Origin: Gammaproteobacteria bacterium
GTDB taxonomy: Bacteria; Pseudomonadota; Gammaproteobacteria; Natronospirales; JANNEA01
Assembly: GCA_031388175.1 (NCBI GenBank)
Contig: JANNEA010000033.1
Location: forward strand, 1-45,462
Reading direction: 5' to 3'
DNA length: 45,462 nucleotides
Position numbers and translations under genes: made by a program. The notes below the pieces were generated by a model, which made no database searches, was not told the DNA's origin, and worked only from the letters and a program-made list of their open reading frames with translations. This document shows positions 1,356 to 42,687 of the stretch, in pieces; position 1 is the stretch's first letter; each line of letters opens with the position of its first letter.

Positions 1356-2732
1356 ATGAGCGCACCGCAGTCGCAGGGCGAAGGCAGCCTGCTCAAGATC
1401 CTCGGCTACGGTTTCGGCCTAGCGGTCGTGTTCGGCAGCACCGTCGGCAGCGGCATCCTGCGCGCGCCCGGCACCCTCACCGATTCGCTCGGCAGCGTTT
1501 GGGTCTCGCTCGCGGTCTGGGCGATCGTCGGCGTCTACGCGCTGCTCGGCACCATGCTGATGTGCGAACTTGGCGTGATGATGCCAAAGGCCGGAGCATG
1601 GTCGGTCTACGCGCGCCGCGCGTTCGGAGATTCGACCGGCTTCGCCATCGGCTGGACCAACTGGATGCTGCTCGCGGGCACCGGCTCGTCACTCGCCGCG
1701 TTCATCGCGACGCTGGTCGGTGAACTCGATCCGGCGCTGCAGGACGCGACCGCGCGCACCGGCATCGCGGTCGCGACCCTGGTGATGTTCACCGTGCTGC
1801 ATTGGACCGGCACCAAGTCGGGCTCGATGGTCCAGATTGTCACCAGCGTGATCAAGGCCGTCGCCTTCATCGCGCTGGTCGCGGCCTGCTTCATCGTCGG
1901 CGGCGACGGCGGCAATTCCTTCGATGCACCGGTCGCAGCCAACGCCCCGGTCGGCCTGGTGGCGCAGATCGCGGGCCTCGTGATCGCGTTGCAGATCGTG
2001 ATCTTCGCCTACGACGGCTGGTACGGCGCAATCTACTTCGCCGAGGAGGATACCGACCCGGCCCGCAACATGCCGCGTTCGATGATCAACGGCACGCTCT
2101 CGATCATCGCCATCTACCTGCTGATCGTGCTCGCGATCTACTGGGTGCTGCCGCTCGACCGGATCGCCGGCAACGCAGTAGCGGCGGCGACCGCGGCCGA
2201 TGTGGTGTTCGGCCGGGGCGGCGGCACCGTGATCCTGCTGATCTCGCTGATCGCGGTGCCGAGCGTGCTGAACGCGACACTGCTGCAGATGATGCGGGTG
2301 CTGTACTCGCTCGCGCGCGACGGGATGTTCGTGCCGCAGGCCGGCAAGGTCAACGCGGTCGGCACGCCCTGGGTCGCGATGCTGTTCGGCAATGGCGCGG
2401 CGCTCGGCATGCTGCTGATGCAGCAGGCCGCGTTCGACAGGCTCTCGGCAATCACGGCCTACTTCATGGTCACGATCTACCTGTCGGGCTTCTTCGCTTT
2501 CTGGCGGCTGCGCCTGAAGGAGCCGGCGGCCGAGCGCAAGTACCGCGCGCCCTGGCACCCCTGGTCGACGCTGTTCGTAATCGTGCTGAGCCTCGCGTTC
2601 CTCGGCGGTGCGCTCTACATCGATTGGGCGGCTGAGACCCGGCGCTGGGACGTGGTGTTGTCGCTGGTGTTGCTGGGCGCCGCCTACCCGGTCTACTACG
2701 TGCTGCGGCTGCTCGGCCGGATCAAAGGTTGA
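1356..2732 (+). CDS. APC-superfamily amino acid permease
   Basis: 458 aa with about 12 hydrophobic spans. The N-terminal 'GLAVVFGSTVGSGILRAPG' and the overall layout are typical of amino acid/polyamine/organocation permeases. Confidence 0.85.
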   Translation: MSAPQSQGEGSLLKILGYGFGLAVVFGSTVGSGILRAPGTLTDSLGSVWVSLAVWAIVGVYALLGTMLMCELGVMMPKAGAWSVYARRAFGDSTGFAIGWTNWMLLAGTGSSLAAFIATLVGELDPALQDATARTGIAVATLVMFTVLHWTGTKSGSMVQIVTSVIKAVAFIALVAACFIVGGDGGNSFDAPVAANAPVGLVAQIAGLVIALQIVIFAYDGWYGAIYFAEEDTDPARNMPRSMINGTLSIIAIYLLIVLAIYWVLPLDRIAGNAVAAATAADVVFGRGGGTVILLISLIAVPSVLNATLLQMMRVLYSLARDGMFVPQAGKVNAVGTPWVAMLFGNGAALGMLLMQQAAFDRLSAITAYFMVTIYLSGFFAFWRLRLKEPAAERKYRAPWHPWSTLFVIVLSLAFLGGALYIDWAAETRRWDVVLSLVLLGAAYPVYYVLRLLGRIKG

Positions 2733-2736
2733 TGCG

Positions 2737-4545
2737 TCAGAGCATCGCGCAGTAGTCCAGCGGCAGCGTGTGAAGTTTGGCGTCGAACGGACCGGGCAGC
2801 ACGAACAACCGCGCGCCGCGCGAGAACGAGAAGACCCGGTACACGCAAGCTTTCGTGCCATGCTCGAGCCCGATCGCGGATTCGCTGCGCCGTAGCGTGA
2901 ACGGCAGACGGGCCCCGAAGTTTGTGGTCTTGACGATGATGAAGCGCGGCTGCCCCTCCTCGTCGAACGAACGCACATGGAAGCCGAGCGCATCGCCGCG
3001 ATCGGCCGCCACCCACTCGATATTGCCGACCAGGTCCTTGTAGCCGGTCTCGCGCAGGCGCGAGCGCTCATAGGCCAGCACGAACCGCTGCCCTGCGGTC
3101 ACCAGTGCGTCGTCGCGGGCCTCCCGCGCACGGAAGTCGAGGTCGAGCGCCTCGCGTGGATGGAACGCGGGTGCGTCTGCTGGATCATGATCGCCGGCGA
3201 GCGGCGTCGGCATGAGGACCATCCGTGAATCGTCGAGCTCGACCGGCACGTTCACCTTCGACGCGTCGGCCCCGATCCACAGTTGATCGATGAGACCCGG
3301 GTTGTTCTCGAGATTCGAGTAGATCGCGTCGGCCAGAGCGCCGGTGTAACCGCCGAGCGGTCGGAAGCCGTCGACTACGGGCAATCCGAGCGCCAGCAAC
3401 ACCGCGCTGACCTGCTGGAACGCCACATCCACGAGATCGGGATCCTTGAGCCCGAGCTCCTTGGCCATCCGGTTGCGGTGGTCGGCCTTGCTGTACATGC
3501 CGGACGTGAGCTCGATGGTCAGCATGTCGAAGTAGTCGGCAACGATCGCTGGATACATCGGCGGTGTCGGCGCCAAGATCTCGCCAGTGTGATGGTGAGG
3601 CGCGGCCGGCGGCGCTGCGCTCGCGGGTGCCTTCGCCGCCGCCTTGGCGGCAGGCTTGGTGGTCGCGGCGGCTTCGGCGGCTCGCTTCTCCGCGGCGACC
3701 TTGTCGGCACGCGTCTTGTCAGCTGCGGCGCGCTGCGCCGATGCTTTCTCCGCCGCTGCGCGCGCTTCAGAAGCCGCTTTGTCCGCCACCGCCCGCTTCT
3801 CTGCTGCGGCGCTTTCAGCGGCCGCCCGCTCTGCTGCCGCCTTCCTGTCGGCTGCGGCTTGCTCTGCCGCCGCCTTGTCCGCGACGGCGCGGTCAGCCGC
3901 GACTCTTGCAACCGCAGCCTTTTCAGCGGCCGCCTTCGCGGCATGCTCAGCGTCAATTCGCTCGCGCTCGGCCTGCTCGGCCTCTGCTTGTGCCGCGGCC
4001 GCACGATCCTGCTCCGCGCGCACGCCCTGCTGCACCTGCTTCTCTTGGTCTGCCGCGACCTGGGCGCCCTGCGCGGCGGCGCTTCCGGCACCACCGGTGC
4101 CGCGCCCCGTCCAAGCAATCTCCAGCGCGCTCGAGACTGCGTCGGGAATCGCCGCACCCGATGCCTGGTTGTCCCAAGGGAAGGCGGCGAGCCCACCCTG
4201 ACCGAGCGCAGCACGCGGGATGCCCGCGTCCTGCCGTGGCTCGACGATGCTGTCGAACTTCACGTCGACGCATAGCGTGCCCTTGCCGCGTGCACCGTCC
4301 TGGAACTCGTTGGTCGGCGAGTCGTAGCTGCCGCGCGTAACGACGCCCGCAGCGATGATCCCTCGCGGCTCACGCCCGACGCGGAGGATGAACACCCGAT
4401 CACCGGGGAAGATGCGGCGCGAATTGCCGCAGGTCCAGGCGCGCGTGACCGGCTGCCCATGCAGCAAGGCCTCCGATTGTTCGCGGATGTTGCGCCAGTC
4501 CCAGCGCGTGGCATCCCACTTGAGCAGATAAGTCGGCATGGGCAC
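2737..4545 (-). CDS. Three-module protein: N-terminal PUA/EVE-like domain, Ala-rich charged repeat spacer, C-terminal DUF3883 (NOV_C) restriction-endonuclease-fold-like domain
   Basis: 602-aa ORF. N-terminus: 'TYLLKWDATRWDW..RAWTCGNSRRIFPGDRVFILRVGREPRGIIAAGVV..CVDVKFDSIV'. Residues ~175-300 are AAA[DE][KR]-type repeats. C-terminus: 'AYERSRLRETGYKD..IEWVAADRGDALGFHVRSFDEEGQPRFIIVKTT..CVYRVFSF', which follows the DUF3883 pattern. Confidence 0.75.
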   Translation of the reverse strand: MPMPTYLLKWDATRWDWRNIREQSEALLHGQPVTRAWTCGNSRRIFPGDRVFILRVGREPRGIIAAGVVTRGSYDSPTNEFQDGARGKGTLCVDVKFDSIVEPRQDAGIPRAALGQGGLAAFPWDNQASGAAIPDAVSSALEIAWTGRGTGGAGSAAAQGAQVAADQEKQVQQGVRAEQDRAAAAQAEAEQAERERIDAEHAAKAAAEKAAVARVAADRAVADKAAAEQAAADRKAAAERAAAESAAAEKRAVADKAASEARAAAEKASAQRAAADKTRADKVAAEKRAAEAAATTKPAAKAAAKAPASAAPPAAPHHHTGEILAPTPPMYPAIVADYFDMLTIELTSGMYSKADHRNRMAKELGLKDPDLVDVAFQQVSAVLLALGLPVVDGFRPLGGYTGALADAIYSNLENNPGLIDQLWIGADASKVNVPVELDDSRMVLMPTPLAGDHDPADAPAFHPREALDLDFRAREARDDALVTAGQRFVLAYERSRLRETGYKDLVGNIEWVAADRGDALGFHVRSFDEEGQPRFIIVKTTNFGARLPFTLRRSESAIGLEHGTKACVYRVFSFSRGARLFVLPGPFDAKLHTLPLDYCAML

Positions 4546-4595
4546 CCTGCGGCGATACCCGGCCGCTCAGTCCAAACGCCATGATACCGGAGCCT

Positions 4596-4883
4596 TCAGC
4601 TCGGCCAGAACGCGGCGACCAACAATGTGAAGGCGGTCACAGCCGCGCCCTGGGCCCGCCAGCGCCAAGGCCGCTCGCGCAGGTGGCCCACCGTCGCGAA
4701 CGCGAAAGCGACGGCGGCCAGCGCGAACAACACAGTCACCTTCAGCAATGGACGCCATTCGCTATCCAGGCGAGGGTGATCGGCGCTCAGCAGGCCGACG
4801 ATCAGCAGGGTCACGGCCGAGCTAATCGCAATCGCCGCGACCGACCCGAGCAGGACCCCATTCAATGCCGCGAGTGGGCGCAT
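4596..4883 (-). CDS. Small hypothetical membrane protein (95 aa, about 3 TM helices)
   Basis: Internal ATG of the 4596..5102 ORF. 'MRPLAALNGVLLGSVAAIAISSAVTLLIVGLL...LLKVTVLFALAAVAFAFATV...AAVTAFTLLVAAFW' gives three clear hydrophobic helices. It occupies an otherwise empty gap between two genes. No family recognised. Confidence 0.45.
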   Translation of the reverse strand: MRPLAALNGVLLGSVAAIAISSAVTLLIVGLLSADHPRLDSEWRPLLKVTVLFALAAVAFAFATVGHLRERPWRWRAQGAAVTAFTLLVAAFWPS

Positions 4884-4985
4884 CAGGCCGAGTATCCGCG
4901 CTGCTGCGCCCAAGCGGAACTCGCGCCCGGCGCGGTGTTCCAATATCCTGCCCCTGCACCCCTCGGCCCCCACGGACCCCGAAAA

Positions 4986-7124
4986 ATGAAGCGCAAGCTC
5001 CCGCTCCTCGCCGGAACCCTCGTTACTTTGCTGGTCGCCGCCTCGAGCGGCGTCCTGACGGCTGGCACGACCCCGGTGGCTGCGCTGCAGCCCGAACCCC
5101 AATTCGGCTATGCGGAGCGCCTAATCACGCGATTGCTTGCGACCTCGCACTACGCCAGGCGACCGCTCGACGACGCCCTCTCCAACGAGCTCTTCGACCG
5201 CTACCTCGAGGCGCTCGATGGCACCCGCAGCTACTTCAGCGCCGCCGACGTCGCACAGCTCCGCGGCCAGTTCGGCGTGACCCTCGACGACGCGTTGGCC
5301 AGGAACGATGTGCGTCCTGCCTATGCGATCTACAGCGTGTACGCCCAACGGCTGGAGGAGCGCGTCGCGCGGGCGATGCGCCTGCTCGAGCAACTCCCTG
5401 ATTTCACCGTCGCCGAAAGCTACCGCTTCGACCGCAAGGACGCGCCGTGGGCAGCCGACCCCGCCGCCCTCGATGAGTTATGGCGATTGCGCGTGAAGAA
5501 CGATCTCATCGGACTGATGCTCACCGGCAAGAGCTGGGAGGATTCTCGCGATGCCCTGCGCAAGCGTTACGAGAACTTCCTGCACCGTGCCCACCAGGTG
5601 AAGAGCGGCGACGTATTCGAGACCTTCATGAACTCGCTGGCATTGATCTACGACCCGCACTCGAGCTACCTGGGACCACGTGATTCCGAGGAGTTCGCGA
5701 TCAGCATGCGGTTGAAATACGAGGGCATCGGCGCGGCGCTCCAAGTGCAGGATGAGTACGTGCTGGTCGCGCGCATCCTGCCGGGCGGTTCTGCCGCCCG
5801 AACCGGCGAGCTCAAGGAGAACGATCGCATCACCGCGGTCGGGCAATCACCGGACTTCGCGATGACCGACGTCGTCGGCTGGCGGCTCGATGATGTGGTG
5901 CGCTTGATCCGCGGCGCGAAGGACACCCAGGTGCGCTTGCAGGTGTTGCCGGCTGGCGCAGCCCCAGGCGAGCCCGAGAAGCTGATCACGCTGGCACGCG
6001 GCGAGATCAAGCTCGAGGACCGTGCCGCGAAGAAGGAGATCACCGAGGTCAAACGCGGAGAACGCACCTACCGCATCGGCGTGATCCGACTGCCAACCTT
6101 CTACCAGGACTTCGAGGGGCGTCGTTCCGGTGCCCAGGACTACACCAGCACGACGCGCGACGTTAAGCGTCTGCTCGACGAATTGATCGCAGACAAAGTC
6201 GATGGCGTGATGCTGGACCTGCGTGACAACGGCGGTGGCTCGTTGCAGGAGGCAGCAGAACTGACCGGCCTGTTCGTCGATGTGGGTCCGGTGGTGCAAC
6301 TGCGGAGCCAGAGCGGCAAAGTCGAGGTCATGAGCGACCCGACTCCTGGGGTGAGCTACAACGGCCCGCTCGCGGTCCTGGTCAATCGGTTCAGCGCGTC
6401 TGCATCTGAGATCTTCGCCGGTGCGATCCAGGACTACGGCCGAGGCCTCGTCATCGGCTCGAACACGTACGGCAAGGGCACTGTGCAGAGCTTGGTGGAC
6501 CTCAACCAGTGGGTGCGGCCGGGTGCCGAACTCTGCGGCGAACCGCCCTGCGGCGCGCCGGACATCGGGCAACTGAAGCTGACCATCGGCAAGTTCTATC
6601 GAGTGACCGGGTCCAGCACCCAGCATCGCGGCGTCGCCCCAGACGTGGCCCTGCCTGCAGTGATCGACCCGGCCGAGTATGGCGAGAGCTCGCAACCGAG
6701 CGCCCTGCCCTGGGACAGCATCGACGCAACCGAACACCGCGCGCTCCAGGTCGCGCGCGGACTAGCTCCTGCGCTCAGCCGCGAGCATGACCGCCGCGCT
6801 GAGAACGACGATGAGTTCAGGTTGTTCATGACTGAGCTCGCTGAGGCCAAGGTGGCCAACGCCAAGGACTCCGTTTCGCTGGTCCTCACCGAACGAGCGG
6901 CCGAGCGTGACCGCCAGGAAGCCCAACGGTTGACACGCGAGAATCAACGCCGTGCATCGCGTGGGCTGGCGCCACTGGCCAAACTTGCTGATGAGACGAA
7001 GGCAGAGCGCGATACGGAACCCGATGTCCTGCTCGAAGAATCGAGCCAGATCCTGGTGGATACCCTGCAACTGACGGGCGGCAACCTTGCCCAGCTCAGT
7101 CCCAAGCGGCGGATCACGCCCTAG
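4986..7124 (+). CDS. prc: Carboxy-terminal processing (tail-specific) protease, peptidase S41
   Basis: Starts at the in-frame ATG 'MKRKLPLLAGTLVTLLVAASSG' (signal peptide). PDZ-like region present. 'LDLRDNGGGSL', 'RFSASASEIFAGA' and 'SNTYGKGTVQ' are Prc/Tsp motifs. The 135 codons upstream of this ATG do not look protein-like. Confidence 0.9.
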   Translation: MKRKLPLLAGTLVTLLVAASSGVLTAGTTPVAALQPEPQFGYAERLITRLLATSHYARRPLDDALSNELFDRYLEALDGTRSYFSAADVAQLRGQFGVTLDDALARNDVRPAYAIYSVYAQRLEERVARAMRLLEQLPDFTVAESYRFDRKDAPWAADPAALDELWRLRVKNDLIGLMLTGKSWEDSRDALRKRYENFLHRAHQVKSGDVFETFMNSLALIYDPHSSYLGPRDSEEFAISMRLKYEGIGAALQVQDEYVLVARILPGGSAARTGELKENDRITAVGQSPDFAMTDVVGWRLDDVVRLIRGAKDTQVRLQVLPAGAAPGEPEKLITLARGEIKLEDRAAKKEITEVKRGERTYRIGVIRLPTFYQDFEGRRSGAQDYTSTTRDVKRLLDELIADKVDGVMLDLRDNGGGSLQEAAELTGLFVDVGPVVQLRSQSGKVEVMSDPTPGVSYNGPLAVLVNRFSASASEIFAGAIQDYGRGLVIGSNTYGKGTVQSLVDLNQWVRPGAELCGEPPCGAPDIGQLKLTIGKFYRVTGSSTQHRGVAPDVALPAVIDPAEYGESSQPSALPWDSIDATEHRALQVARGLAPALSREHDRRAENDDEFRLFMTELAEAKVANAKDSVSLVLTERAAERDRQEAQRLTRENQRRASRGLAPLAKLADETKAERDTEPDVLLEESSQILVDTLQLTGGNLAQLSPKRRITP

Positions 7125-7321: not shown

Positions 7322-8428
7322 ATGCGCAAGTCCACTGCCACCCAAATCCTCCTGTTCGCCGCGATCGCGGCCAGCCTCGTCGGCTGCAAGAACGGCAGCG
7401 CCGACATGGCGGACAAGAAAGAAGAGACCCCAGCGATCCCGGTAGAGACAGCGGTCGCTGCCACCGGGTCGGTCAGCGCGGTCTACAGCGGCACCGCAAG
7501 CCTCGAGGCCGAGCAACAGGCGACGGTCGTCGCCAAAGTCAGTGGTGTCGTCACCAAGCTCCTGGTCGAGGAAGGCACGCGCGTTCGCGCCGGGCAAGTC
7601 CTGGCGAAGCTCGACGATGCCCGGATGAAGCTGGAACTCGACCGCGCTCGGGCCAACCTCGCCAAGCTTGAGCAGGAATACAGCCGCAACATGCAGCTGC
7701 ATGACAAGGGTCTGGTGAGCGCTGACGCCTACGAGCGAATCAAGTTCGACCTCGACGCCCTGAAGGCGCAGTTTGAGCTGGCGAAGCTGGACCTGGATTA
7801 CACCTCGATCCGTGCGCCGATCGATGGCATCGTGTCCGAGCGACTGATCAAGGTCGGCAACATGGTCACGGTGAACCAGTCGGTGTTCGTGGTCACCGAT
7901 TTCGACCCGCTGCTGGCGAGCCTGTTCGTGCCAGAACGCGAGCTCGACAAATTGCGCGCCCAACAGCGAGCGGCGGTCTCCGCTGATGCACTCCCGGGCC
8001 AGCGCTTCACCGCGACGATCGATCGGATCAGCCCCACCGTGGACCCGAAGACCGGCACCTTCAAGGTAACGATCGCCGTGGCTGATCCAACGCGCCGCCT
8101 CAAGCCCGGCATGTTCGGTCGCATCGACATCACCTACGATGTGCGCAGCAACACCTTGCTGGTGCCGCGCGCCGCAGTACTGCAAGAAGACGCCGAGTCT
8201 GCGGTGTTCATGGTCAAGGACGGTGTGGCAATTCGCCGCACCGTGACCACGGGCTACACCAACAACGGCAGCATCGAGGTCGTGTCGGGCCTGAGCGTCG
8301 GCGACACTGTCGTGACGGTCGGCCAGACCAGCCTCAAGGATGGCGCCAAGGTCATCCAGGTAGGCGCCAAGCCTGGTGAGACCAAGGTCGCTGCCGGTGA
8401 CGGCGCCAAGAAGGGCGGCCAGGCCTGA
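7322..8428 (+). CDS. RND efflux periplasmic adaptor (membrane fusion protein, HlyD/AcrA family), lipoprotein
   Basis: Lipobox 'AASLVGC'. Lipoyl/hairpin/beta-barrel pattern: 'VVAKVSGVVTKLLVEEGTRVRAGQVLAKLDD', a coiled-coil hairpin, and 'IRAPIDGIVSERLIKVGNMV'. Confidence 0.9.
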   Translation: MRKSTATQILLFAAIAASLVGCKNGSADMADKKEETPAIPVETAVAATGSVSAVYSGTASLEAEQQATVVAKVSGVVTKLLVEEGTRVRAGQVLAKLDDARMKLELDRARANLAKLEQEYSRNMQLHDKGLVSADAYERIKFDLDALKAQFELAKLDLDYTSIRAPIDGIVSERLIKVGNMVTVNQSVFVVTDFDPLLASLFVPERELDKLRAQQRAAVSADALPGQRFTATIDRISPTVDPKTGTFKVTIAVADPTRRLKPGMFGRIDITYDVRSNTLLVPRAAVLQEDAESAVFMVKDGVAIRRTVTTGYTNNGSIEVVSGLSVGDTVVTVGQTSLKDGAKVIQVGAKPGETKVAAGDGAKKGGQA

Positions 8429-8453
8429 TCACGAGCGTCCGGGGAACTGCGCC

Positions 8454-8987
8454 ATGCTCCTGCGAACCGCGTTGTTGATGGCCGCTGGCGCGGTCACGGT
8501 GAGCGCGGCGGCCGGGCCGAACTGCGACGCACTCGACCTGGGGCAGCGCGTCGAGCTGCGCGATACCGATATCGACCTGGACGGACGTGACCTCGTGCTG
8601 CGCGCTTCCGGCGCCGAGCTCGTGCATGTTGATGCCAAGGGCAAACTGTTCGTGGAAGGCCGTCCGGTCACGGTGCCCGCATCGGCGCAACCACATCTCG
8701 ATGCCTACGTCGACGGCTTCCATCGGTTGGGGGCGGACGCCACTGACGTCGGCCACGCCGGTGCCAAGCTGGGAGTCCATGCGCTGACCGGCCTGGTGAA
8801 CGTGCTGTTCACGGAATCGACGATCGACGACTACGAGCGTGACATGGAGCGAGCCGGCGAGCGCCTCGAGGGACGAACCGAGCAACTTTGCCAGGTCGTC
8901 GCCGATCTCCAGCGCACCGAGCGTGAGCTGCAGCAGCGCATCCCGGCCTTCCCCGCCTTCCTCTCCCCCGTTCAAACCGCGCTCTAG
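8454..8987 (+). CDS. Secreted hypothetical protein, DUF2884 (YggN)-like
   Basis: Starts at the in-frame ATG 'MLLRTALLMAAGAVTVSAAAG' (signal peptide). The layout is a Cys early in the mature part, then 'L..DG.L.V.G..V.....Q......Y', then a C-terminal helical part with a second Cys ('EQLCQVVADL') and 'PAFPAF'. This resembles the DUF2884 layout as I recall it. Confidence 0.5.
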   Translation: MLLRTALLMAAGAVTVSAAAGPNCDALDLGQRVELRDTDIDLDGRDLVLRASGAELVHVDAKGKLFVEGRPVTVPASAQPHLDAYVDGFHRLGADATDVGHAGAKLGVHALTGLVNVLFTESTIDDYERDMERAGERLEGRTEQLCQVVADLQRTERELQQRIPAFPAFLSPVQTAL

Positions 8988-9002
8988 ACCACAGGGATCA
9001 AC

Positions 9003-12000
9003 GTGGATCGCAACCAAACTCTGGGCATCGTCCGCCTTGCCACCGAACGCCGCGTCACAATCATGATGGTGACCATCGCGATCTTGGTGTTCGGCTTCGT
9101 CTCGCTGTCGCGACTCAAGCTGAACCTGCTGCCCGAGCTGTCCTATCCGACCGTCACCATCCGCACCGAGCTCGTAGGCGCAGCGCCAACCGAGCTCGAG
9201 AACCTGGTCAGCAAGCCGATCGAGGAAGCGGTCGGCGTGATCAAGGGTGTGCGCCAGGTGCGTTCCGTCTCGCGCTCCGGCCAATCGGACGTAACCCTGG
9301 AGTTCCAGTGGGGCACGGAGATGGACTACGCGGGCGTCGACATCCGCGAGAAGCTCGACGTGCTCAACCTGCCGCTCGAGGCGAAGCGCCCAGTGTTGCT
9401 GCGCTTCGACCCGTCGGCCGAACCGGTCGTCCGGATGGGCCTGTCGCTCGAGCAGAAGGAAGGCGCCGCCCCGCTCTCCGAGGAACAGCTGAAGGCGCTG
9501 CGTCGCTATGCCGACGAGCAGCTCAAGAAGGAGTTCGAATCGATCGAGGGCGTCGCCGCGGTCAAGATTAGCGGCGGCCTCGAAGATGAGGTCCAGATCC
9601 TGGTCGACCAGGAGAAGCTTGCGCGGCTGAAACTTTCGATCGCGACGGTGGCCCAGCGGTTGCGCGCAGAGAACGTGAACCTCTCAGGTGGCAGGCTTGA
9701 GGAGGGCAACCAGCAGTACCTCGTGCGCACGGTCAACGAGTTCAAGACCGTAGAGGAGATCGGCAACGCAATCGTGATGCTCTCCGACGGTCAGCCGGTC
9801 TACCTGCGCGACGTTGCGACGGTGCAGCAAGGTTACAAGGAGCGGCAGGCGATCACCCGCGTCGGCGGCCAAGAGTCGGTCGAACTGGCGATCTACAAGG
9901 AAGGCGACGCCAATACCGTGAGCGTCGGCGAACAGCTCGACGGCCGCCTCGAACGCATCCAGAAGGGCCTGCCTGCGAACTACAAGCTCAAGAAAGTCTA
10001 CGACCAGGCGAGCTTCATCTCCGAGGCTGTCAGTGAGGTCGTGCAGGCCGCTCTGTGGGGCGGTCTGTTGTCCGCGCTGCTGATCTATCTGTTCCTGCGG
10101 AACATCTGGGCTACGGTCGTGATCTCGATCTCGATCCCGGTGTCGGTGATCGCCGCGTTCAACGTGATGTACTTCAGCAACATCACGCTCAACATCATGT
10201 CGCTCGGCGGCATCGCGCTCGCCGTCGGCATGGTGGTCGACGATTCGATCGTGGTGCTCGAGAACATCGAGAAGCATCTCCACTCGGGTGCGTCAGCGCT
10301 CGACGCCGCGCTCAAGGGCACCAGCGAGATGGGCCTCGCGGTGATCGCGACCACTCTCACCACCGTCGCGGTGTTCTTCCCGCTGGTGTTCGTCAAGGGT
10401 GTCGCTGGCCAGCTGTTCCGCGATCAGGCGCTCACGGTCACCTACACGCTGCTGTTCTCGCTGCTGGTGTCGCTGACGCTCATCCCGATGCTGGTCGCAG
10501 CGCGGCAGCGCCGGGCTCCCGAACCACTGCCGGCCGATCCCGAACCGATGCCTGCATCCGAGCCCGTTGATCTCATTCAGTCGCCGCTGATGGGCGACCC
10601 GTCCCGCTTGGCCAAAATGCGCGCGATGACCTGGCACGGACTTGTCAGGCTCGGCGGCTGGCTCGCCATCGCCGGCAAGTACCTGCACATCGCCGGCAGC
10701 GCGCTGCTGCGTTGGGTGATGGCTGGGGTCGTGATTGCCGGCCGGGCACTGTCGATCGCCGGCAGCTGGGCCACCGATTGGCTCGTGATCCGCTTCCAGT
10801 CCAGCTACGCGAAGGTCGAGGTCGACTACGAGCGCCTGCTCGAATGGGCGCTCGGCCACCGCCAGAAGATCCTGCTGTTCGCCACTGGCGCCTTCGTCGT
10901 CGCGGTCGGCCTGGTGCCTCTGCTCGGCGTCGAGCTCATCCCCGCGCTGTCGCAGGGCGAGTTCCACGTGCAGGTGAAGCTGCCACCGGGCACGCCGATA
11001 GACCGCACCGACGCTGCCATCCAGGCGGTGCAACGCGCCGCCGCTGGCGTCGACACGATAGAGACCACCTACTCCGTCGCTGGCACTGGCAACCGCCTCG
11101 ACGCCAACCCGGTCGACTCGGGCGAGAACGCCGGAACGCTGAACGCAGTGATGCGCAGCGATGCCGGTCGAGTGGACGAGGAGCGTGCGATCGCCGCCTT
11201 GCGCGCGGCGCTCGCCGACCTGCCTGGCGTCGAGTACAAGTTCGGCCGTCCCGAGCTGTTCAGCTTCAAGACGCCGCTTGAGATCGAGATCGTGGGCTAC
11301 GACCTCGACAACCTGAAGCTCGCCGGCGACCTGATCGCCGGCCAGATGGCCGCCTCCGACCGCTTCGCCGACGTCAAATCATCGATGGAGGCCGGACATC
11401 CTGAGATCCAGATCCATTTCGACCAGGCGCGCGCAGCGCAACTCGGGTTGGTGGTGAGCGAGGTCGCCGATCGAGTGGTCAAGAAGGTCCGCGGCGAGAT
11501 CGCCACCCGCTATACCCTGCGCGACCGCAAGATCGATGTGTTGGTGCGCAACCTCGAGGAGCAGCGCTCCTCGGTTGAGGACATCCGCAAGCTCATCGTC
11601 AATCCGGAGAGCGATCGCCCGGTGACGCTCGATGCCGTAGCGGACATCGAGGTCGGCAGCGGCCCGAGCGAGGTCCGCCGCATCGCACAGGAACGCGTGG
11701 CAGTGGTGTCCGCGAACCTGAAGAAGGGCGATCTCGGTGCCGGCGTGACCGAGGTCAACCAGATCATCGCCCGCTCGACATTGCCCGCCGGCATCGTCAC
11801 GCGCATCGCCGGTCAGAACGAGGAGATGCAGAGCTCGTTCCGCTCGATGCAGTTCGCGCTGGCCTTGGCTATCTTCCTGGTCTATCTGGTGATGGCATCG
11901 CAGTTCGAGTCGCTGCTGCATCCGTTCGTGATCCTGTTCACGATCCCGCTCGGCGTGGTCGGCGCGGTCGCGGCGCTGCTGCTCACCAATACGACAATCA

Positions 12001-12365
12001 GCGTCATCGTGTTCATCGGCCTGATCATGCTCGCCGGCATCGTGGTCAAGAACGCGATTATCCTGATCGACGTCATCAACCGGATGCGCGTCCAGGGCGT
12101 CGAGGTGCATCGCGCGATCGTCGATGGCTCGCGCTCGCGACTGCGGCCGATCGTGATGACCTCGTTGTGCACCACGCTGGGGCTGCTGCCGATGGCGCTG
12201 GGACTCGGCGCCGGCGCGGAGATCCGTGCGCCGATGGCAATCACGGTGATCGGCGGCCTGACCGTCTCGACGCTGCTGACCCTGATCGTGATACCGGTCG
12301 TGTACTCGCTGCTGGAGCGTGATGTGCCAGAACCAACGCCCGGGACGGTCGAGGAGCTCGCCTGA
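9003..12365 (+). CDS. RND efflux transporter permease (AcrB/MdtB-type), long form with an enlarged central loop
   Basis: 1120 aa from a GTG start. 'RRVTIMMVTIAILVFG..LPELSYPTVTIRTE' is a typical RND N-terminus. 12-TM plus two-periplasmic-loop architecture. 'GMVVDDSIVVLENI' in TM4. Confidence 0.92.
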   Translation: MDRNQTLGIVRLATERRVTIMMVTIAILVFGFVSLSRLKLNLLPELSYPTVTIRTELVGAAPTELENLVSKPIEEAVGVIKGVRQVRSVSRSGQSDVTLEFQWGTEMDYAGVDIREKLDVLNLPLEAKRPVLLRFDPSAEPVVRMGLSLEQKEGAAPLSEEQLKALRRYADEQLKKEFESIEGVAAVKISGGLEDEVQILVDQEKLARLKLSIATVAQRLRAENVNLSGGRLEEGNQQYLVRTVNEFKTVEEIGNAIVMLSDGQPVYLRDVATVQQGYKERQAITRVGGQESVELAIYKEGDANTVSVGEQLDGRLERIQKGLPANYKLKKVYDQASFISEAVSEVVQAALWGGLLSALLIYLFLRNIWATVVISISIPVSVIAAFNVMYFSNITLNIMSLGGIALAVGMVVDDSIVVLENIEKHLHSGASALDAALKGTSEMGLAVIATTLTTVAVFFPLVFVKGVAGQLFRDQALTVTYTLLFSLLVSLTLIPMLVAARQRRAPEPLPADPEPMPASEPVDLIQSPLMGDPSRLAKMRAMTWHGLVRLGGWLAIAGKYLHIAGSALLRWVMAGVVIAGRALSIAGSWATDWLVIRFQSSYAKVEVDYERLLEWALGHRQKILLFATGAFVVAVGLVPLLGVELIPALSQGEFHVQVKLPPGTPIDRTDAAIQAVQRAAAGVDTIETTYSVAGTGNRLDANPVDSGENAGTLNAVMRSDAGRVDEERAIAALRAALADLPGVEYKFGRPELFSFKTPLEIEIVGYDLDNLKLAGDLIAGQMAASDRFADVKSSMEAGHPEIQIHFDQARAAQLGLVVSEVADRVVKKVRGEIATRYTLRDRKIDVLVRNLEEQRSSVEDIRKLIVNPESDRPVTLDAVADIEVGSGPSEVRRIAQERVAVVSANLKKGDLGAGVTEVNQIIARSTLPAGIVTRIAGQNEEMQSSFRSMQFALALAIFLVYLVMASQFESLLHPFVILFTIPLGVVGAVAALLLTNTTISVIVFIGLIMLAGIVVKNAIILIDVINRMRVQGVEVHRAIVDGSRSRLRPIVMTSLCTTLGLLPMALGLGAGAEIRAPMAITVIGGLTVSTLLTLIVIPVVYSLLERDVPEPTPGTVEELA

Positions 12366-12366
12366 C

Positions 12367-15300
12367 ATGAACATCACCGAACTGTCGATACGCCGGCCCG
12401 TCACCACGGTGATGCTGTTCGTCTGCTTCGCGGCGATCGGCGCGATCTCGGCCAGGCTGCTGCCGCTCGAGTACTTCCCGAGCATCGAGTTCCCGTTCGT
12501 CCAGGTGAACGTGCCCTACCAGGGCTCGACGCCCGAGGAGGTCGAGCGCCTGATCACCAAACCGATTGAGGAGGCGCTGGCGACGATCGGCGGCATCGAG
12601 GACATGCGTTCTGAGTCGAGCCAGAACGGCGCAAACATCGGCGTGTTCTTCGGCTGGGGCGCGGATCCCGCGGTGAAGGGGCTCGAGGTCCTGGACAAGA
12701 TCGACGCGATCCGCGGCACTTTGCCCAGCGACGTAGAGCGCGTGTTCGTGCGCAAGGAGTCGACCGCCGACCAGTCGATGCTGCGGATCCGCCTCTCGAG
12801 CAACCGCGACCTGTCCGACGCCTACGACATGCTCGACCGCAGCATCAAACGGCGATTGGAGCGCATCGACGGCGTCTCGCAGGTGACGCTCTACGGCGTC
12901 GAGAAGAAGGAGATCCGCATCCTGCTGCTGGCGGACCGGATCGCCGCACACAACGTCGACGTGACCAAGTTGTCGCAGGTGCTGCGCGACGCGAACTTCT
13001 CCGTCACCGCCGGGCAGATCACCGACGAAGGCTCGCGCTTCAGCGTCCACCCGCTCGGCGAGTTCCGCTCGCTCACCGAGATCGAGGATCTGATCATCGA
13101 CGGCACGCTGCGGCTGGGTGACGTCGCCAAGGTGACGCTCGGGTCGCCGGAGCGCGAGTACGGCCGTCACCTCGACCGCCGCTATGCGATCGGTCTCGAC
13201 GTGTTCAAGGAAACCGGCTCGAACCTGGTCGAGGTCTCGCGTCGCGTGTTCGTCGAGCTCGACGAGATCAAGAAGCTGCCACAGATGCAGGGCATCGTGT
13301 TGTTCTACATGGACAACCAGGCTGAGGGCGTCACCACCTCGCTCGGCGACCTCGCTGAGGCCGGGATGATCGGCCTGTTGCTCTCGATCTGCGTGCTGTA
13401 CTTCTTCCTGCGCAATTGGGCGACGACACTGATGATCGCGCTGGCGGTCCCGGCATCGCTGTCGGTCGCGCTCGCCGGCATGTACTTCATCGGCTTGAGC
13501 CTGAACATCCTGTCGATGATGGGCCTGATGCTGGCGGTCGGCATGCTGGTCGACAACGCCGTGGTCGTGGTCGAGAACATCCACCGCAAGCAGCTGCAGT
13601 TCGGTCTCAGCCCCTACCAGGCAGCGCTCGAGGGCACCCGCGAGGTCGGGCTCGCGATCACCGCCGGCACACTGTCGACCGTGATCGTGTTCGTGCCCAA
13701 CATCTTCGGCAGCCAGAACGAGATCACCATCTTCCTGTCGCACGTCGCCTGGGCGATCGTGATCTCGCTGCTTGCCTCGTTGTTCATCGCGCTGACCCTG
13801 ATCCCGATGCTGGTCGCGCGCTTGCCGCCGCCCAAGCCGATCGAGGGCGGCACGGTGATCGACCGGATCAGCGACCGCTACGAGCAACTGGTCGGTTGGA
13901 CCCTGCGTCACAAGGTGCGCACCAGCTTGCTCATCGTGGTCACCCTGCTGTCGGTGGCGTTGCCCATGGGCATGGTCAAGATGGACATGTTCCCGCAGGA
14001 GGGTTCGCGCCGGGTCTACATGAACTACCAGATCGAGGGGCGCTACAGCCTGGAGCAGGTCGAGGCCGCGGTCACCACGATCGAGAACTACCTCTACGCG
14101 CACCAGAAGGAATGGGAGATCGAGTCTGTCTACAGCTACTTCGACAAGGGCAGCGCCTTCACCGTCGCCCTGCTGGTGGATGACGACAAGGCAGAACGCG
14201 ACACCAACGAGATCCGCGAAGAGATGCGCAAGGACATGCCCAAACTCGCGATCGGTGCACCGAGCTTCGAGTTCAGGCGCACCGGTAGCGCCGAAGGCCT
14301 GAAGGTGTATTTGCGCGGCGACTCGAGCCAGGATCTCGTACCCCTGAGCAGGGAAGTCGCGCGCATCCTGGCAAAAGTCGAGGGCCTGACCGACGTGCGA
14401 TCGTCAGCGCGCGGCGAGGAACACGAGGTGCAGATCGTGGTCGATCGCGATCGCGCCCTGCTGCGCGGGCTCAGCACCCAGGCGGTGGCGAGCAACGTCG
14501 CCGTCGCACTGCGCGGCCAGAACCTGCGACAGTTCCGCGGCGCCGAGGGCGAGATCTCGGTCCGCCTGACCTATGACGCCGACGACAGCCAAACGCTCGA
14601 CCAGCTGGCCTCGCTGTCGCTGTTCGCGCCGAACGGCGAGCGGGTGCCGCTGTCATCGATCGCCGACCTGCGGGTCGTGCGCTCGCCGATGGCGATCGAG
14701 CGCGAGCAGCGCAAGACCTCCGTCGCGATCGACGCCGGTCTGGGCAAGGACGTCACCATGGACCAGGTCCGGCCGAGGATCGAGAAGGTCATGGACAGCA
14801 TCAAACTGCCTGCCGGCTACTCCTGGGGCTTCGGCCGCGGCGTCGAGAACGACGACGAGACCGGCAACATCATGCTGACCAACATGATGCTGGCGCTGAT
14901 GCTGATCTACCTGGTGATGGCCGCACTGTTCGAATCGCTGCTGTCACCGTTCGTGATCATCTGGACGATCTTCTTCTCGATCATCGGCGTGTTCTGGTTC
15001 TTCTTCGCTTCGCAGACCACGTTCTCGTTCATGGCGATGATCGGCATCCTGATCCTGATGGGCGTGGTGGTTAACAACGGCGTGGTTATGATCGACCACG
15101 TCAACCAGCTGCGGGCCAAGGGCATGCCACGCGACGAGGCGTTGCGGCGCGGTGCGCGCGATAGGTTGCGACCGATCTTGATGACGACGGCGTCGACCCT
15201 GCTCGGTCTGATCCCGCTGGCGATCGGCGACACACAGATCGGCGGCGATGGCCCGCCCTACTTCCCGATGGCGCGGGCGATCATCGGTGGGCTGCTGTTC

Positions 15301-15441
15301 TCGACCTTCGCCAGCTTGATCTTCCTGCCGACCATCTTCTGCTGGTACGAGGGGTTCGGCCGCTGGTGGCAAGGGAAGCTGGCTGCAGCGCGAGCGGTGC
15401 AGGTCCTCAAGCCGGCGACGGACGCAGTCGACGGCACCTGA
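12367..15441 (+). CDS. Second RND efflux transporter permease (MdtC-like partner)
   Basis: In-frame ATG 'MNITELSIRRPVTTVMLFVCFAAIG' one nt after the stop of the preceding RND gene. 'GMLVDNAVVVVENI' present. 1024 aa. Confidence 0.92.
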   Translation: MNITELSIRRPVTTVMLFVCFAAIGAISARLLPLEYFPSIEFPFVQVNVPYQGSTPEEVERLITKPIEEALATIGGIEDMRSESSQNGANIGVFFGWGADPAVKGLEVLDKIDAIRGTLPSDVERVFVRKESTADQSMLRIRLSSNRDLSDAYDMLDRSIKRRLERIDGVSQVTLYGVEKKEIRILLLADRIAAHNVDVTKLSQVLRDANFSVTAGQITDEGSRFSVHPLGEFRSLTEIEDLIIDGTLRLGDVAKVTLGSPEREYGRHLDRRYAIGLDVFKETGSNLVEVSRRVFVELDEIKKLPQMQGIVLFYMDNQAEGVTTSLGDLAEAGMIGLLLSICVLYFFLRNWATTLMIALAVPASLSVALAGMYFIGLSLNILSMMGLMLAVGMLVDNAVVVVENIHRKQLQFGLSPYQAALEGTREVGLAITAGTLSTVIVFVPNIFGSQNEITIFLSHVAWAIVISLLASLFIALTLIPMLVARLPPPKPIEGGTVIDRISDRYEQLVGWTLRHKVRTSLLIVVTLLSVALPMGMVKMDMFPQEGSRRVYMNYQIEGRYSLEQVEAAVTTIENYLYAHQKEWEIESVYSYFDKGSAFTVALLVDDDKAERDTNEIREEMRKDMPKLAIGAPSFEFRRTGSAEGLKVYLRGDSSQDLVPLSREVARILAKVEGLTDVRSSARGEEHEVQIVVDRDRALLRGLSTQAVASNVAVALRGQNLRQFRGAEGEISVRLTYDADDSQTLDQLASLSLFAPNGERVPLSSIADLRVVRSPMAIEREQRKTSVAIDAGLGKDVTMDQVRPRIEKVMDSIKLPAGYSWGFGRGVENDDETGNIMLTNMMLALMLIYLVMAALFESLLSPFVIIWTIFFSIIGVFWFFFASQTTFSFMAMIGILILMGVVVNNGVVMIDHVNQLRAKGMPRDEALRRGARDRLRPILMTTASTLLGLIPLAIGDTQIGGDGPPYFPMARAIIGGLLFSTFASLIFLPTIFCWYEGFGRWWQGKLAAARAVQVLKPATDAVDGT

Positions 15442-42539: not shown

Positions 42540-42557
42540 CGGGGCCTCAGCATGAGC

Positions 42558-42662
<105 letters not shown>

Positions 42663-42687
42663 CGATGCGGATCACCATTGCATTGAG

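What the first reader, a model, noticed from the sequence alone, without database searches (positions are those of the whole stretch)
2737..4545. Solitary reader / spacer / nuclease-fold protein with substituted catalytic core
The protein has three modules.

N-terminal module (residues 1-146, nt 4108-4545): 'TYLLKWDATRWDW...RAWTCGNSRRIFPGDRVFILRVGREPRGIIAAGVV...CVDVKFDSIV...FPWDNQASGAAIPD'. This has the look of the PUA-superfamily (EVE/ASCH-like) modules that I recall at the N-termini of McrA/HNH-type modification-dependent (type IV) restriction enzymes.

Middle segment: 'AFQQVSAVLLALGLPVVDGFRPLGGY' resembles a helper segment of the same enzymes (pattern QNISAVL...G.P.I.GY.P).

C-terminal module (about 115 aa): it follows the DUF3883/NOV_C layout (ER..L..G / WV / G-Y-D-I-x-S / I-E-V-K-T-T / Y-R-V), which is predicted to be a restriction-endonuclease-like fold. 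Here the D is H ('GFHV', nt 2974-2985) and the E is I ('IIVK', nt 2929-2940). Only the Lys is kept.

The gene stands alone. There is no methyltransferase, helicase or ATPase partner. It is wedged 4 nt from a convergent permease gene.

One reading is a single-polypeptide modified-nucleic-acid sensor whose nuclease fold has become a non-catalytic binding or oligomerisation module. Another is that it uses non-canonical chemistry.
Basis: partly seen in the sequence, partly recalled or inferred. Interest (0 to 1): 0.7.

Follow-up and report, generated by a model that had tools for sequence, protein, structure and literature searches.

The report
Domesticated restriction-enzyme relative lacking catalytic residues
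This gene encodes a modified-base "reader" domain joined by a long helical spacer to a restriction-nuclease module that has lost residues shown to be essential in a characterised relative, and it has been kept at one chromosomal spot, so it looks like a former defence enzyme reused as a non-cutting binding protein.

Summary
ORF 2737..4545(-), with ATG 4539 the likelier start, encodes four parts:
- an EVE-fold reader (Pfam EVE; the predicted structure matches 2eve, THYN1 and VcaM4I);
- a roughly 180-aa Ala/Glu/Lys/Arg-rich spacer;
- a helical "helper" domain;
- a NOV_C/DUF3883 PD-(D/E)xK-fold domain with H523 and I537 where 221 of 230 relatives have D and E.

The helper plus NOV_C half is the PADLOC candidate PDC-S36 (E = 1.7e-63). 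The same module is fused to SBD, EVE, HNH and ScoMcrA-head readers. In the SBD-fused Hga enzyme, mutating the equivalent D, E or K cuts restriction more than 300-fold.

The window protein belongs to a monophyletic gammaproteobacterial clade (bootstrap 100/100). Every member has the EVE domain and a long charged spacer, and every member lacks the ExK glutamate (I, V, A, C, S or K instead). The clade also lost a polar cluster in the helper domain and gained new invariant residues.

All domains are under purifying selection (omega 0.10–0.20). The gene sits beside prc in seven loci, in housekeeping context. Canonical relatives sit in variable contexts that sporadically include defence or mobile genes.

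Best reading: a domesticated type IV restriction derivative that no longer cuts and binds modified nucleic acid. Residual or relocated catalysis is not excluded. I rate it a new variant of a known kind.

The parts
2737..4545 (-). Whole ORF: 602 aa from GTG 4545, or 600 aa from the more likely ATG 4539. The stop codon is 2737-2739.
   Evidence: ORF list. Start-site reasoning comes from homologue N-termini and the upstream AGGG motif.
4108..4545 (-). EVE-fold reader module, residues 1-146. Clade-invariant residues include W10, W17, W37, R43, R44, E59-P60-R61-G62, Y74, W124 and S129-G130.
   Evidence: Pfam EVE scores 24.5 bits against a cutoff of 23. The AF2 model has pLDDT 87.8. Top Foldseek PDB hits are EVE domains, including THYN1 with 5mC DNA and VcaM4I. 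The clade shares 44 invariant columns. Relatives are fused to HNH.
3571..4107 (-). Low-complexity spacer, roughly residues 147-325. It is 41% Ala with interspersed E, K, R and D, is close to net-neutral, and has almost no Pro or Gly in its core. Probably a long single alpha-helix or coiled coil.
   Evidence: Composition and clade comparison: the linker is 75-222 aa in clade members and 26 aa in the canonical P0126. Only weak DNA-level repeats were found. The histone-H1-like NCBIfam hit is far below its cutoff.
3136..3570 (-). Helical 'helper' domain, roughly residues 326-470. This is the N-terminal half of the PDC-S36 module. The family-invariant polar cluster (R367, K375, H376, N378, Y394, K395, N399, Q401) is replaced, and the clade-specific W423 and V-E-L-D-D-S (435-440) are gained.
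   Evidence: PADLOC PDC-S36 covers profile positions 14-278 of 280 at E = 1.7e-63. Alignments. AF2 model of the C-terminal half has pLDDT 90.8. No relative by sequence in PDB or Pfam.
2740..3135 (-). NOV_C/DUF3883 PD-(D/E)xK-fold domain, residues 471-602. E493 is kept (nt 3067-3069). H523 replaces D (nt 2977-2979). I537 replaces E (nt 2935-2937). K539 is kept (nt 2929-2931).
   Evidence: Pfam NOV_C at E = 6.4e-10. Motif states across 230 relatives. Predicted alpha-beta-beta-alpha-beta-beta order. Hga mutagenesis of the equivalent D, E and K.
4596..4883 (-). Neighbour: a 95-aa predicted membrane protein, same direction as the gene and about 50 nt upstream of it. It is conserved beside prc in related loci.
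   Evidence: Sequence. Homologues in L001-L003, L081, L082 and L084. Other genes separate it from the EVE gene in several of those loci, so no specific coupling is evident.
4950..7124 (+). Synteny anchor: tail-specific protease Prc, divergent from the gene.
   Evidence: Pfam TSP_NTD, PDZ, Peptidase_S41 and DUF3340. Prc lies upstream of the EVE-fused gene in L001-L003, L081, L082 and L084.

Best explanation
The gene encodes a domesticated descendant of a single-chain, modification-dependent (type IV) restriction enzyme.

Ancestral plan. A modified-base reader is fused to a two-domain effector (helper plus NOV_C PD-(D/E)xK nuclease, the PADLOC 'PDC-S36' module). In the SBD-fused enzyme Hga, this type of module cuts modified DNA through a D...ExK site.

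What happened in this lineage. In one gammaproteobacterial lineage, an EVE-fused version settled next to prc. It lost the ExK glutamate, and in this sub-lineage also the aspartate (now His). It lost a conserved polar cluster in the helper domain. It gained a 75-220-residue Ala- or ER/K-rich helical spacer and a new set of invariant residues.

Proposed mechanism. The EVE pocket still binds a modified base in DNA (or RNA). The C-terminal half no longer cleaves by the canonical metal-dependent route and instead serves as a second binding or dimerisation module. The spacer holds the two ends apart. The protein would therefore mark, bridge or occlude modified nucleic acid instead of destroying it. 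The target may be a host modification, which would explain why nuclease activity was lost.

Shown: domain identities, homology, the pattern of residue loss and gain, monophyly, purifying selection and synteny.

Inferred: loss of activity, the ligand, helicity of the spacer, and the biological role.
For: Anatomy.

The family is a nuclease effector for modification readers. The same helper plus NOV_C module is fused to:
- SBD (match to 8h0l at E = 4e-47);
- a ScoMcrA-head-like module;
- HNH_2;
- EVE (P0032, P0061).

Experimental anchor. Hga (SBD plus PD-(D/E)XK, 436 aa) restricts phosphorothioate-modified DNA, and D355A, E370A and K372A each give a more than 300-fold loss. SBD-fused family members have D, E and K at matching positions with matching spacing.

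Loss in this lineage. The canonical E-D-ExK is present in 77 of 80 and 144 of 150 relatives. Every protein carrying this EVE type plus a long linker lacks the Glu, which is I, V, A, C, S or K instead. The helper polar cluster is lost as well. The clade is monophyletic at 100/100.

The gene is not decaying. Omega is 0.17 for EVE, 0.18 for the linker, 0.10 for the helper and 0.20 for NOV_C. The EVE domain has 44 invariant columns. About 30 clade-specific conserved positions have been gained.

Context. Prc is the upstream neighbour in the window, L001-L003, L081, L082 and L084. The rest of the window is housekeeping. Canonical members have no conserved neighbour and sporadically sit near IS200, type I R-M, SoFic or MADS genes. 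The canonical EVE fusion P0126 sits in an island-like context.
Against: - No biochemical data exist for any clade member.
- E493, K539 and E555 are retained. D523 is retained in L001-L003, P0034 and P0056.
- New invariant acidic residues (E436, D438, E499) could rebuild a metal site, as happens in Cfr10I-type enzymes where the acidic residue has moved (the Cfr10I precedent is from my own knowledge). His523 is conserved within the sub-lineage and could bind metal.
- The equivalence of Hga residues to the query's rests on SBD-fused homologues.
- Fold searches of the C-terminal half were not significant.
- Helicity of the spacer is inferred from composition only.
- dS of 0.5-1.6 is partly saturated, so the omega values are approximate.
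Confidence: 0.55

Rival explanations
1. It is still an active modification-dependent nuclease with a rearranged or non-canonical active site. For example, E493 and H523 (D523 in other members), E555 and K539 could act together with a recruited acidic residue such as E436, D438 or E499. The protein would then remain a single-gene defence enzyme.
For: E493, K539 and E555 are invariant, and D523 is kept in five clade members. The clade has gained invariant acidic residues. H523 is conserved across the query sub-lineage. The nuclease-fold domain is under purifying selection. From my own knowledge, PD-(D/E)xK enzymes with a relocated acidic residue are known (Cfr10I and NgoMIV type).
Against: The Glu position carries six different residues, including hydrophobic ones and Lys. 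That argues against a single new catalytic solution at that position. The equivalent E370A and D355A mutations in Hga each abolish restriction. The gene has a fixed housekeeping location with no island context, unlike canonical members. The helper polar cluster was lost at the same time.
Confidence: 0.22
2. It is a reader of modified RNA, not DNA. It would bind, for example, modified tRNA or rRNA in the way YTH domains and some EVE proteins do, with the dead nuclease fold acting as an RNA-binding platform in a housekeeping role.
For: After EVE domains, the next-best fold matches are YTH m6A-RNA readers. EVE and PUA domains were classically regarded as RNA-binding (PMC6765204). Many proteobacterial EVE proteins have housekeeping contexts (PMC7641849). 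The gene sits in a stable chromosomal location.
Against: The closest sequence relatives of this EVE subtype are fused to HNH or PD-(D/E)xK DNA nucleases and are named McrA-like. The C-terminal module's characterised relative acts on DNA. No RNA-metabolism neighbour is conserved.
Confidence: 0.15
3. It is an ordinary, fully functional PDC-S36-type defence gene, and the substitutions are irrelevant; or, at the other extreme, it is a decaying pseudogene remnant.
For: The PADLOC PDC-S36 profile matches at E = 1.7e-63, so automated pipelines would label it a defence candidate.
Against: The two substituted positions are conserved in 221 of 230 relatives and are essential in Hga. The context is housekeeping. 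Against decay: intact ORFs persist across 45-86% identity, omega is 0.10-0.20 in every domain, and new invariant residues have appeared.
Confidence: 0.05

Closest known systems
Hga from Hahella ganghwensis (WP_020410240.1), a phosphorothioate-dependent SBD + PD-(D/E)XK type IV restriction endonuclease (PMC10602919)
   Same: Single chain with an N-terminal modification reader followed by a C-terminal module of about 270 aa ending in a PD-(D/E)xK domain. SBD-fused members of the query's family match SBDHga at 46-58% identity. They have the same length and the same D/E/K spacing as Hga's D355, E370 and K372.
   Different: A spacer of about 180 aa is inserted. The residues equivalent to D355 and E370 are His and Ile. 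The helper polar cluster is lost. The gene sits in a fixed housekeeping locus.
EVE-HNH type IV enzymes (VcaM4I, TspA15I, CmeDI group; PDB 6yex; PMC6765204)
   Same: The N-terminal EVE reader is of the same subtype. Profile hits to EVE-HNH proteins of about 270 aa reach E = 1e-36 to 1e-20, and VcaM4I is among the top structural matches.
   Different: The effector is helper plus NOV_C, not HNH. The catalytic residues are substituted. There is a long spacer where those enzymes have a short linker.
PADLOC candidate PDC-S36 (stand-alone helper + NOV_C proteins of about 283 aa)
   Same: Residues 333-601 match the profile end to end. The query shares 30-38% identity with canonical members.
   Different: Canonical members are stand-alone and have E-D-ExK and the KHQNIS...GYKP..NYQ cluster. 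They lie in variable contexts that sometimes include defence or mobile genes. The query is fused, degenerate at both sites, and syntenic with prc.
YenY4I and McaZI (PUA-superfamily and/or DUF3427 reader + DUF3883 nuclease; PMC6765204)
   Same: A reader module fused to a DUF3883/NOV_C PD-(D/E)xK domain in one polypeptide with no methyltransferase partner.
   Different: Those enzymes have an intact catalytic domain and measurable modification-dependent cleavage. They use a DUF3427 specificity domain instead of the helper domain, have no long spacer, and often sit in prophage or defence-island contexts.

Membership tests
EVE domain (Pfam PF01878, PUA superfamily) | Sequence match to the family HMM above the curated cutoff | tested here: met
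   The isolated N-terminus scores 24.5 bits against a cutoff of 23. The score is 21.2 bits, just below cutoff, when the whole protein is scanned. This pass is marginal.
EVE domain (Pfam PF01878, PUA superfamily) | Five-stranded pseudo-barrel EVE fold | tested here: met
   The AF2 model has pLDDT 87.8. Twelve of the first 14 Foldseek PDB hits are EVE or THYN1 structures, including VcaM4I (E = 3e-6 to 2e-3, TM about 0.55-0.64), with a YTH domain first appearing at rank 13.
EVE domain (Pfam PF01878, PUA superfamily) | Binds a flipped modified base in a conserved pocket | not testable with these tools
   Only indirect evidence: Trp, Tyr and Arg residues are invariant across the clade and nearly invariant in EVE-HNH relatives.
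NOV_C / DUF3883 (PD-(D/E)xK clan) | Sequence match to the family HMM above the curated cutoff | tested here: met
   39.4 bits against a cutoff of 22.1, E = 6.4e-10, residues 487-581.
NOV_C / DUF3883 (PD-(D/E)xK clan) | [quoted passage not shown] | tested here: inconclusive
   The confident model (pLDDT 90.8) has the expected order of helices and strands, with E493, H523 and I537-x-K539 on the expected elements. Foldseek hits to PD-(D/E)xK nucleases are all non-significant, with a best E of 0.07. The two-domain model could not be split.
NOV_C / DUF3883 (PD-(D/E)xK clan) | Catalytic D...(D/E)xK triad | tested here: not met
   The query has H523...I537-x-K539. The triad is canonical in 77 of 80 and 144 of 150 relatives.
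PADLOC PDC-S36 candidate defence protein | Full-length match to the PDC-S36 profile | tested here: met
   E = 1.7e-63, profile positions 14-278 of 280, residues 333-601.
PADLOC PDC-S36 candidate defence protein | Family-invariant polar residues (helper KHQN / GYKP..NYQ cluster and nuclease D, E) | tested here: not met
   K375, N399, Q401 and E537 are kept in none of the 8-9 clade members. R367, H376, N378, Y394, K395 and D523 are kept in two or fewer.
PADLOC PDC-S36 candidate defence protein | Defence-island or variable genomic context | tested here: not met
   The gene is fixed next to prc in seven loci, and the window is housekeeping. Canonical members show variable neighbours, sporadically including defence or mobile genes.
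PADLOC PDC-S36 candidate defence protein | Anti-phage activity | not testable with these tools
   No paper mentioning PDC-S36 was found.
Type IV (modification-dependent) restriction endonuclease, single-chain reader-nuclease type | Modification-reader domain fused to a nuclease-fold domain, with no cognate methyltransferase | tested here: met
   EVE plus NOV_C in one chain. No methyltransferase among the neighbours and large ORFs scanned. ORFs shorter than 300 aa further away were not scanned.
Type IV (modification-dependent) restriction endonuclease, single-chain reader-nuclease type | Intact nuclease active site | tested here: not met
   D->H and E->I. The equivalent residues are essential in Hga.
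Type IV (modification-dependent) restriction endonuclease, single-chain reader-nuclease type | Modification-dependent cleavage or restriction | not testable with these tools
   Requires biochemistry or plating assays.

The most novel reading that the evidence does not exclude
A bacterial lineage converted a type IV restriction enzyme into a non-destructive epigenetic reader. In this reading, the EVE pocket recognises a modification present in the host's own DNA (or RNA). The dead nuclease module binds or dimerises on nucleic acid. A rigid helical spacer 10-30 nm long sets the distance between the two, so the protein bridges or marks modified sites. That would be a prokaryotic counterpart of eukaryotic readers such as THYN1 and YTH, derived from an immune nuclease.
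Probability: 0.3. Interest if true: 0.75.

Novelty: new variant of a known kind. Interest (0 to 1): 0.5.

Why it matters
Reader-nuclease fusions are the standard design of type IV restriction enzymes. Automated tools would label this gene a defence candidate (PDC-S36).

The comparative evidence instead shows a whole clade that:
- discarded residues that are experimentally essential in a relative;
- added a long spacer;
- became a stable chromosomal gene.

If the protein is a non-cleaving reader, it would be a clear case of an immune nuclease being reused. It could also point to a dedicated reader of DNA or RNA modification in bacteria, of which few are known.

The finding also links the uncharacterised PDC-S36 candidate to the validated enzyme Hga. 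It shows that the helper plus NOV_C module is a shared effector for EVE, SBD, HNH and ScoMcrA-head readers.

It is also a practical warning: defence-system annotation by profile match alone can include catalytically degenerate, domesticated members.

Tried and rejected
- Whole-protein search of PDB sequences gave only low-complexity matches to the linker.
- The NCBIfam histone-H1-like hit scores 21.5 bits against a cutoff of 80. It reflects composition and is not membership.
- The linker has only weak, short repeats at DNA level, so it is not a recent tandem expansion.
- The N-terminal profile search of PDB hit only the HNH parts contributed by fusion partners.
- Fold searches of the C-terminal half found nothing significant in PDB or BFVD. 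The model could not be split, and coordinates are not exposed, so distances around the active site could not be measured.
- A profile of the helper domain alone found nothing in PDB. No Pfam model covers it. There is no PHROG match.
- No paper mentions PDC-S36.
- P0126 (EVE plus canonical module) was considered as the direct ancestor and rejected. It never groups with the clade (0/100).
- Functional coupling to prc or to the 95-aa membrane ORF was considered and judged unlikely. Unrelated genes (a Na+/H+ antiporter, a DUF1232 protein and a 155-aa ORF) are inserted between them in L001-L003, L081 and L083, and the orientation relative to prc is divergent.
- Pseudogene decay was rejected on the dN/dS values and the conservation of intact ORFs.
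- The full Hga sequence could not be obtained, because no supplement is held.
Full report
**1. Observation**

The window contains an ORF at 2737..4545 on the minus strand, 602 aa from a GTG start. Its stop codon is 4 nt from the stop of a convergent amino-acid permease gene (1356..2732). Homologues begin 'MPTYLL', and an AGGG motif lies 6 nt upstream of ATG 4539, so ATG 4539 is the more likely start.

**2. The modules**

*N-terminus (residues 1-146).* Pfam EVE scores 21.2 bits in the whole protein and 24.5 bits against a cutoff of 23 when this module is scanned alone. An AlphaFold2 model built on 69 homologues is confident, with pLDDT 87.8 and pTM 0.84. Its best PDB matches are EVE domains: 2ar1, human THYN1 bound to 5mC DNA, 2g2x, 2eve and the EVE-HNH restriction enzyme VcaM4I. 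YTH domains follow. A profile search with the clade's N-termini found 77 relatives. Beyond close partial copies from Gammaproteobacteria MAGs, most are proteins of about 270 aa in which the same EVE subtype is fused to HNH (PF01844) and which sources name '5-methylcytosine-specific restriction protein A'. A few are direct EVE-NOV_C fusions with an intact D...ExK.

*Spacer (about residues 147-325).* It is 41% Ala with interspersed Glu, Lys, Arg and Asp, and is nearly net-neutral. Only weak repeats are present at DNA level.

*C-terminal half (residues 333-601).* It matches the PADLOC candidate PDC-S36 end to end at E = 1.7e-63. Its last roughly 100 residues match Pfam NOV_C at E = 6.4e-10. The model of this half is confident, with pLDDT 90.8 and pTM 0.88. 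It shows a helical 'helper' domain followed by an alpha-beta-beta-alpha-beta-beta unit that carries E493, H523 and I537-x-K539 on the expected elements. Fold searches gave no significant match. The weak-hit lists are rich in PD-(D/E)xK nucleases. The helper domain has no Pfam model and no PDB relative by sequence.

**3. The family behind the C-terminal half**

- An exhaustive profile search found 8,154 proteins at E <= 1e-3, of which 1,118 are at E <= 1e-30.
- Most are stand-alone proteins of about 283 aa.
- The E...D...ExK residues are canonical in 77 of 80 genomic homologues and in 144 of 150 cluster representatives.

The module is also fused to other readers or nucleases:

| Partner | Evidence |
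|---|---|
| HNH_2 (P0004) | |
| Pfam-detectable EVE domains with an intact site (P0032, P0061) | |
| A module weakly similar to the ScoMcrA head domain (5zmm, E = 0.003) | |
| The phosphorothioate-sensing SBD (8h0l SBDHga, E = 4e-47) | |

The SBD link gives an experimental anchor. Hga (SBD plus PD-(D/E)XK, 436 aa) restricts phosphorothioate-modified DNA in vivo, and D355A, E370A and K372A each reduce restriction more than 300-fold (PMC10602919). Eight SBD-fused family members are 435-467 aa long, and their SBD is 46-58% identical to SBDHga. They carry D, E and K with Hga's +15/+2 spacing; in the six that are 435-444 aa long the positions (353-361, 368-376, 370-378) fall within a few residues of Hga's. 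I therefore equate Hga's D355, E370 and K372 with the query's H523, I537 and K539.

Lutz et al. 2019 describe reader-DUF3883 enzymes such as YenY4I. Bell et al. 2020 catalogue EVE-PD-(D/E)xK and EVE-HNH fusions.

**4. The window protein belongs to a distinct clade**

Searching all collected relatives with the query's N-terminus hit these strongly: P0006, P0007, P0034, P0056, P0078 and L001-L003. P0126 was a weak hit.

All of the strong hits that include the C-terminal half share the layout EVE, long charged or Ala-rich linker (75-222 aa), helper, NOV_C. P0006 is a 187-aa partial protein that ends within the linker. All of the others lack the ExK glutamate, as do P0001-P0003 and P0044, which are C-terminal fragments that group with them by sequence. 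The residue in its place is:

| Replacement | Members |
|---|---|
| Ile | query, P0001, P0003, P0007 |
| Val | P0002 |
| Ala | P0044, P0056 |
| Cys | L001-L003 |
| Ser | P0078 |
| Lys | P0034 |

The Asp is His in the query sub-lineage and Asn in P0078. It is retained in L001-L003, P0034 and P0056.

The clade also lost a family-invariant polar cluster in the helper domain: R367, K375, H376, N378, Y394, K395, N399 and Q401. It kept essentially all structural positions, as well as E493, S526, K539, E555 and R570.

It gained about 30 clade-specific conserved positions. These include W423, the V-E-L-D-D-S motif (435-440), R472, R487, E499, N542 and R546.

On the C-terminal half, the clade is monophyletic in 100 of 100 neighbour-joining bootstraps. 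P0126, which has a short Gly linker and a canonical site, never joins it and is an independent fusion. One stand-alone protein, P0120, has degenerated independently.

**5. Selection**

I compared the window gene with its relative in L084 (78% amino-acid identity) using the Nei-Gojobori method:

| Domain | omega |
|---|---|
| EVE | 0.17 |
| Linker | 0.18 |
| Helper | 0.10 |
| NOV_C | 0.20 |

dS is 0.5-1.6, so these values are approximate. Every module, including the substituted nuclease fold, is clearly being maintained. The EVE domain has 44 invariant columns across the clade.

**6. Genomic context**

In the window the gene is flanked by TerC and an amino-acid permease on one side. On the other side lie a 95-aa membrane ORF, the tail-specific protease Prc, an RND membrane-fusion protein, DUF2884 and two AcrB-type pumps. 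The rest of the window is core chromosome: PpsA, aldehyde dehydrogenase, a PLP enzyme, an HtpX-type protease, RsgA, DnaX, SRP RNA and tRNA-Ser.

Prc lies upstream and divergent in six further clade loci: L001-L003, L081, L082 and L084. L083 is too short to show whether it does. L082 and L084 also share the efflux genes beyond Prc. The downstream neighbours differ between loci, and unrelated genes are inserted between Prc and the gene in several. I therefore read the synteny as vertical inheritance and not as functional coupling.

By contrast, 120 neighbours of 20 canonical stand-alone members hit 127 different Pfam families. No partner recurs. IS200 transposases, type I R-M subunits, SoFic, MADS and PDC-S24 proteins and a Schlafen-type helicase appear sporadically. 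P0126 lies among DUF87, HTH/M78-peptidase, QueC-like, DUF6119 and kinase genes.

**7. Interpretation**

*Shown by the data:*
- The domain identities.
- Descent from a family whose characterised member is a type IV nuclease.
- Clade-wide loss of an experimentally essential Glu, and in this sub-lineage of the Asp.
- Concurrent remodelling of the helper domain.
- Gain of a long spacer and of new conserved residues.
- Purifying selection on every module.
- Stable chromosomal inheritance.

*Inferred:* The protein no longer cleaves by the canonical mechanism. It acts as a non-destructive binder of modified nucleic acid, with the EVE domain as reader, the C-terminal half as a second binding or dimerisation module, and the spacer as a rigid separator. 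A plausible driver is that the recognised modification became part of the host's own nucleic acid, which would make cleavage harmful.

*Main rival:* relocated or non-canonical catalysis. E493, K539 and E555 persist, D523 persists in part of the clade, H523 could bind metal, and new invariant acidic residues exist. The variety of residues at the former Glu position argues against this rival, but I could not test spatial proximity.

An RNA target is also possible, given the YTH-like fold neighbours. Pseudogene decay and 'ordinary active enzyme' are both poorly supported.

**8. Novelty and score**

Reader-nuclease fusions, EVE-PD-(D/E)xK architectures and the PDC-S36 candidate are all known. What is new is a monophyletic, vertically inherited, catalytically degenerate and spacer-bearing derivative, together with the link between PDC-S36 and Hga.

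I rate it a new variant of a known kind, with interest 0.5. It is a well-supported case of probable exaptation of an immune nuclease and gives a directly testable hypothesis, but there is no functional evidence yet.

Noticed in passing
window 4596..4883 (-): A 95-aa ORF encoding a predicted multi-pass membrane protein lies about 50 nt upstream of the EVE gene, in the same direction and divergent from prc. Homologues sit beside prc in L001-L003, L081, L082 and L084. Its function is unknown and it had no Pfam hit on record in those loci.
   Followed up: partly
window 4537..4545 (-): The annotated-style GTG start (4545) is probably wrong. ATG 4539 has an AGGG motif 6 nt upstream, and all homologues start at the equivalent Met ('MPTYLL').
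   Followed up: yes
window 4581..7124 (+): The longest prc ORF starts at 4581 and would overlap the 95-aa ORF on the opposite strand. The Prc domains and a signal-peptide-like 'MKRKLPLLAGTLVTLLVAASSG' begin near 4950, so the true start is probably there.
   Followed up: partly
window 7322..15441 (+): An RND efflux cluster consists of a membrane-fusion protein, a DUF2884 protein (8376..8987) and two tandem AcrB-family pumps (9003..12365 and 12319..15441, an MdtBC-like arrangement). The MFP-DUF2884 pairing next to prc recurs in L082 and L084.
   Followed up: partly
window 42570..42779 (-): Bacterial small SRP RNA (42570..42667) and tRNA-Ser(GGA) (42688..42779) lie immediately upstream of dnaX. 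The longest dnaX ORF (40965..42596) overlaps the SRP RNA by about 27 nt, so dnaX probably starts further downstream.
   Followed up: no
L029, L033, L040, L054, L055, L065, L073, L077 (gene ending near 10800 in most of these loci): Eight species carry SBD (phosphorothioate reader, 46-58% identical to SBDHga) fused to the canonical helper + NOV_C module. They are probable orthologues of the validated enzyme Hga. This ties the uncharacterised PADLOC candidate PDC-S36 to an experimentally proven type IV nuclease.
   Followed up: partly
P0120 (283 aa, stand-alone): This stand-alone family member has no EVE domain and has independently lost both catalytic carboxylates (Ala and Asn in place of D and E). 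Degeneration of this nuclease has therefore happened more than once.
   Followed up: no
P0034 / L082 10001..11896: The linker of this clade member is a near-perfect (KERAD/KERAE/KERVE)n pentapeptide array of about 150 residues. That is a textbook ER/K single-alpha-helix composition, and it supports the idea that spacer length matters more than spacer sequence.
   Followed up: partly
L085 5941..7305 and neighbours: The canonical EVE + PDC-S36 protein P0126 sits beside a QueC-like protein, an HTH/M78-peptidase protein, and DUF87 ATPase, DUF6119 and protein-kinase genes. This may be an uncharacterised defence island.
   Followed up: no
L001-L003, L081, L083 (148-162-aa ORF directly upstream of, and divergent from, the EVE-fused gene): A conserved small ORF (35-41% identity, no Pfam hit) lies directly upstream of the gene in five clade loci. 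It is absent from the window, from L082 and from L084.
   Followed up: partly
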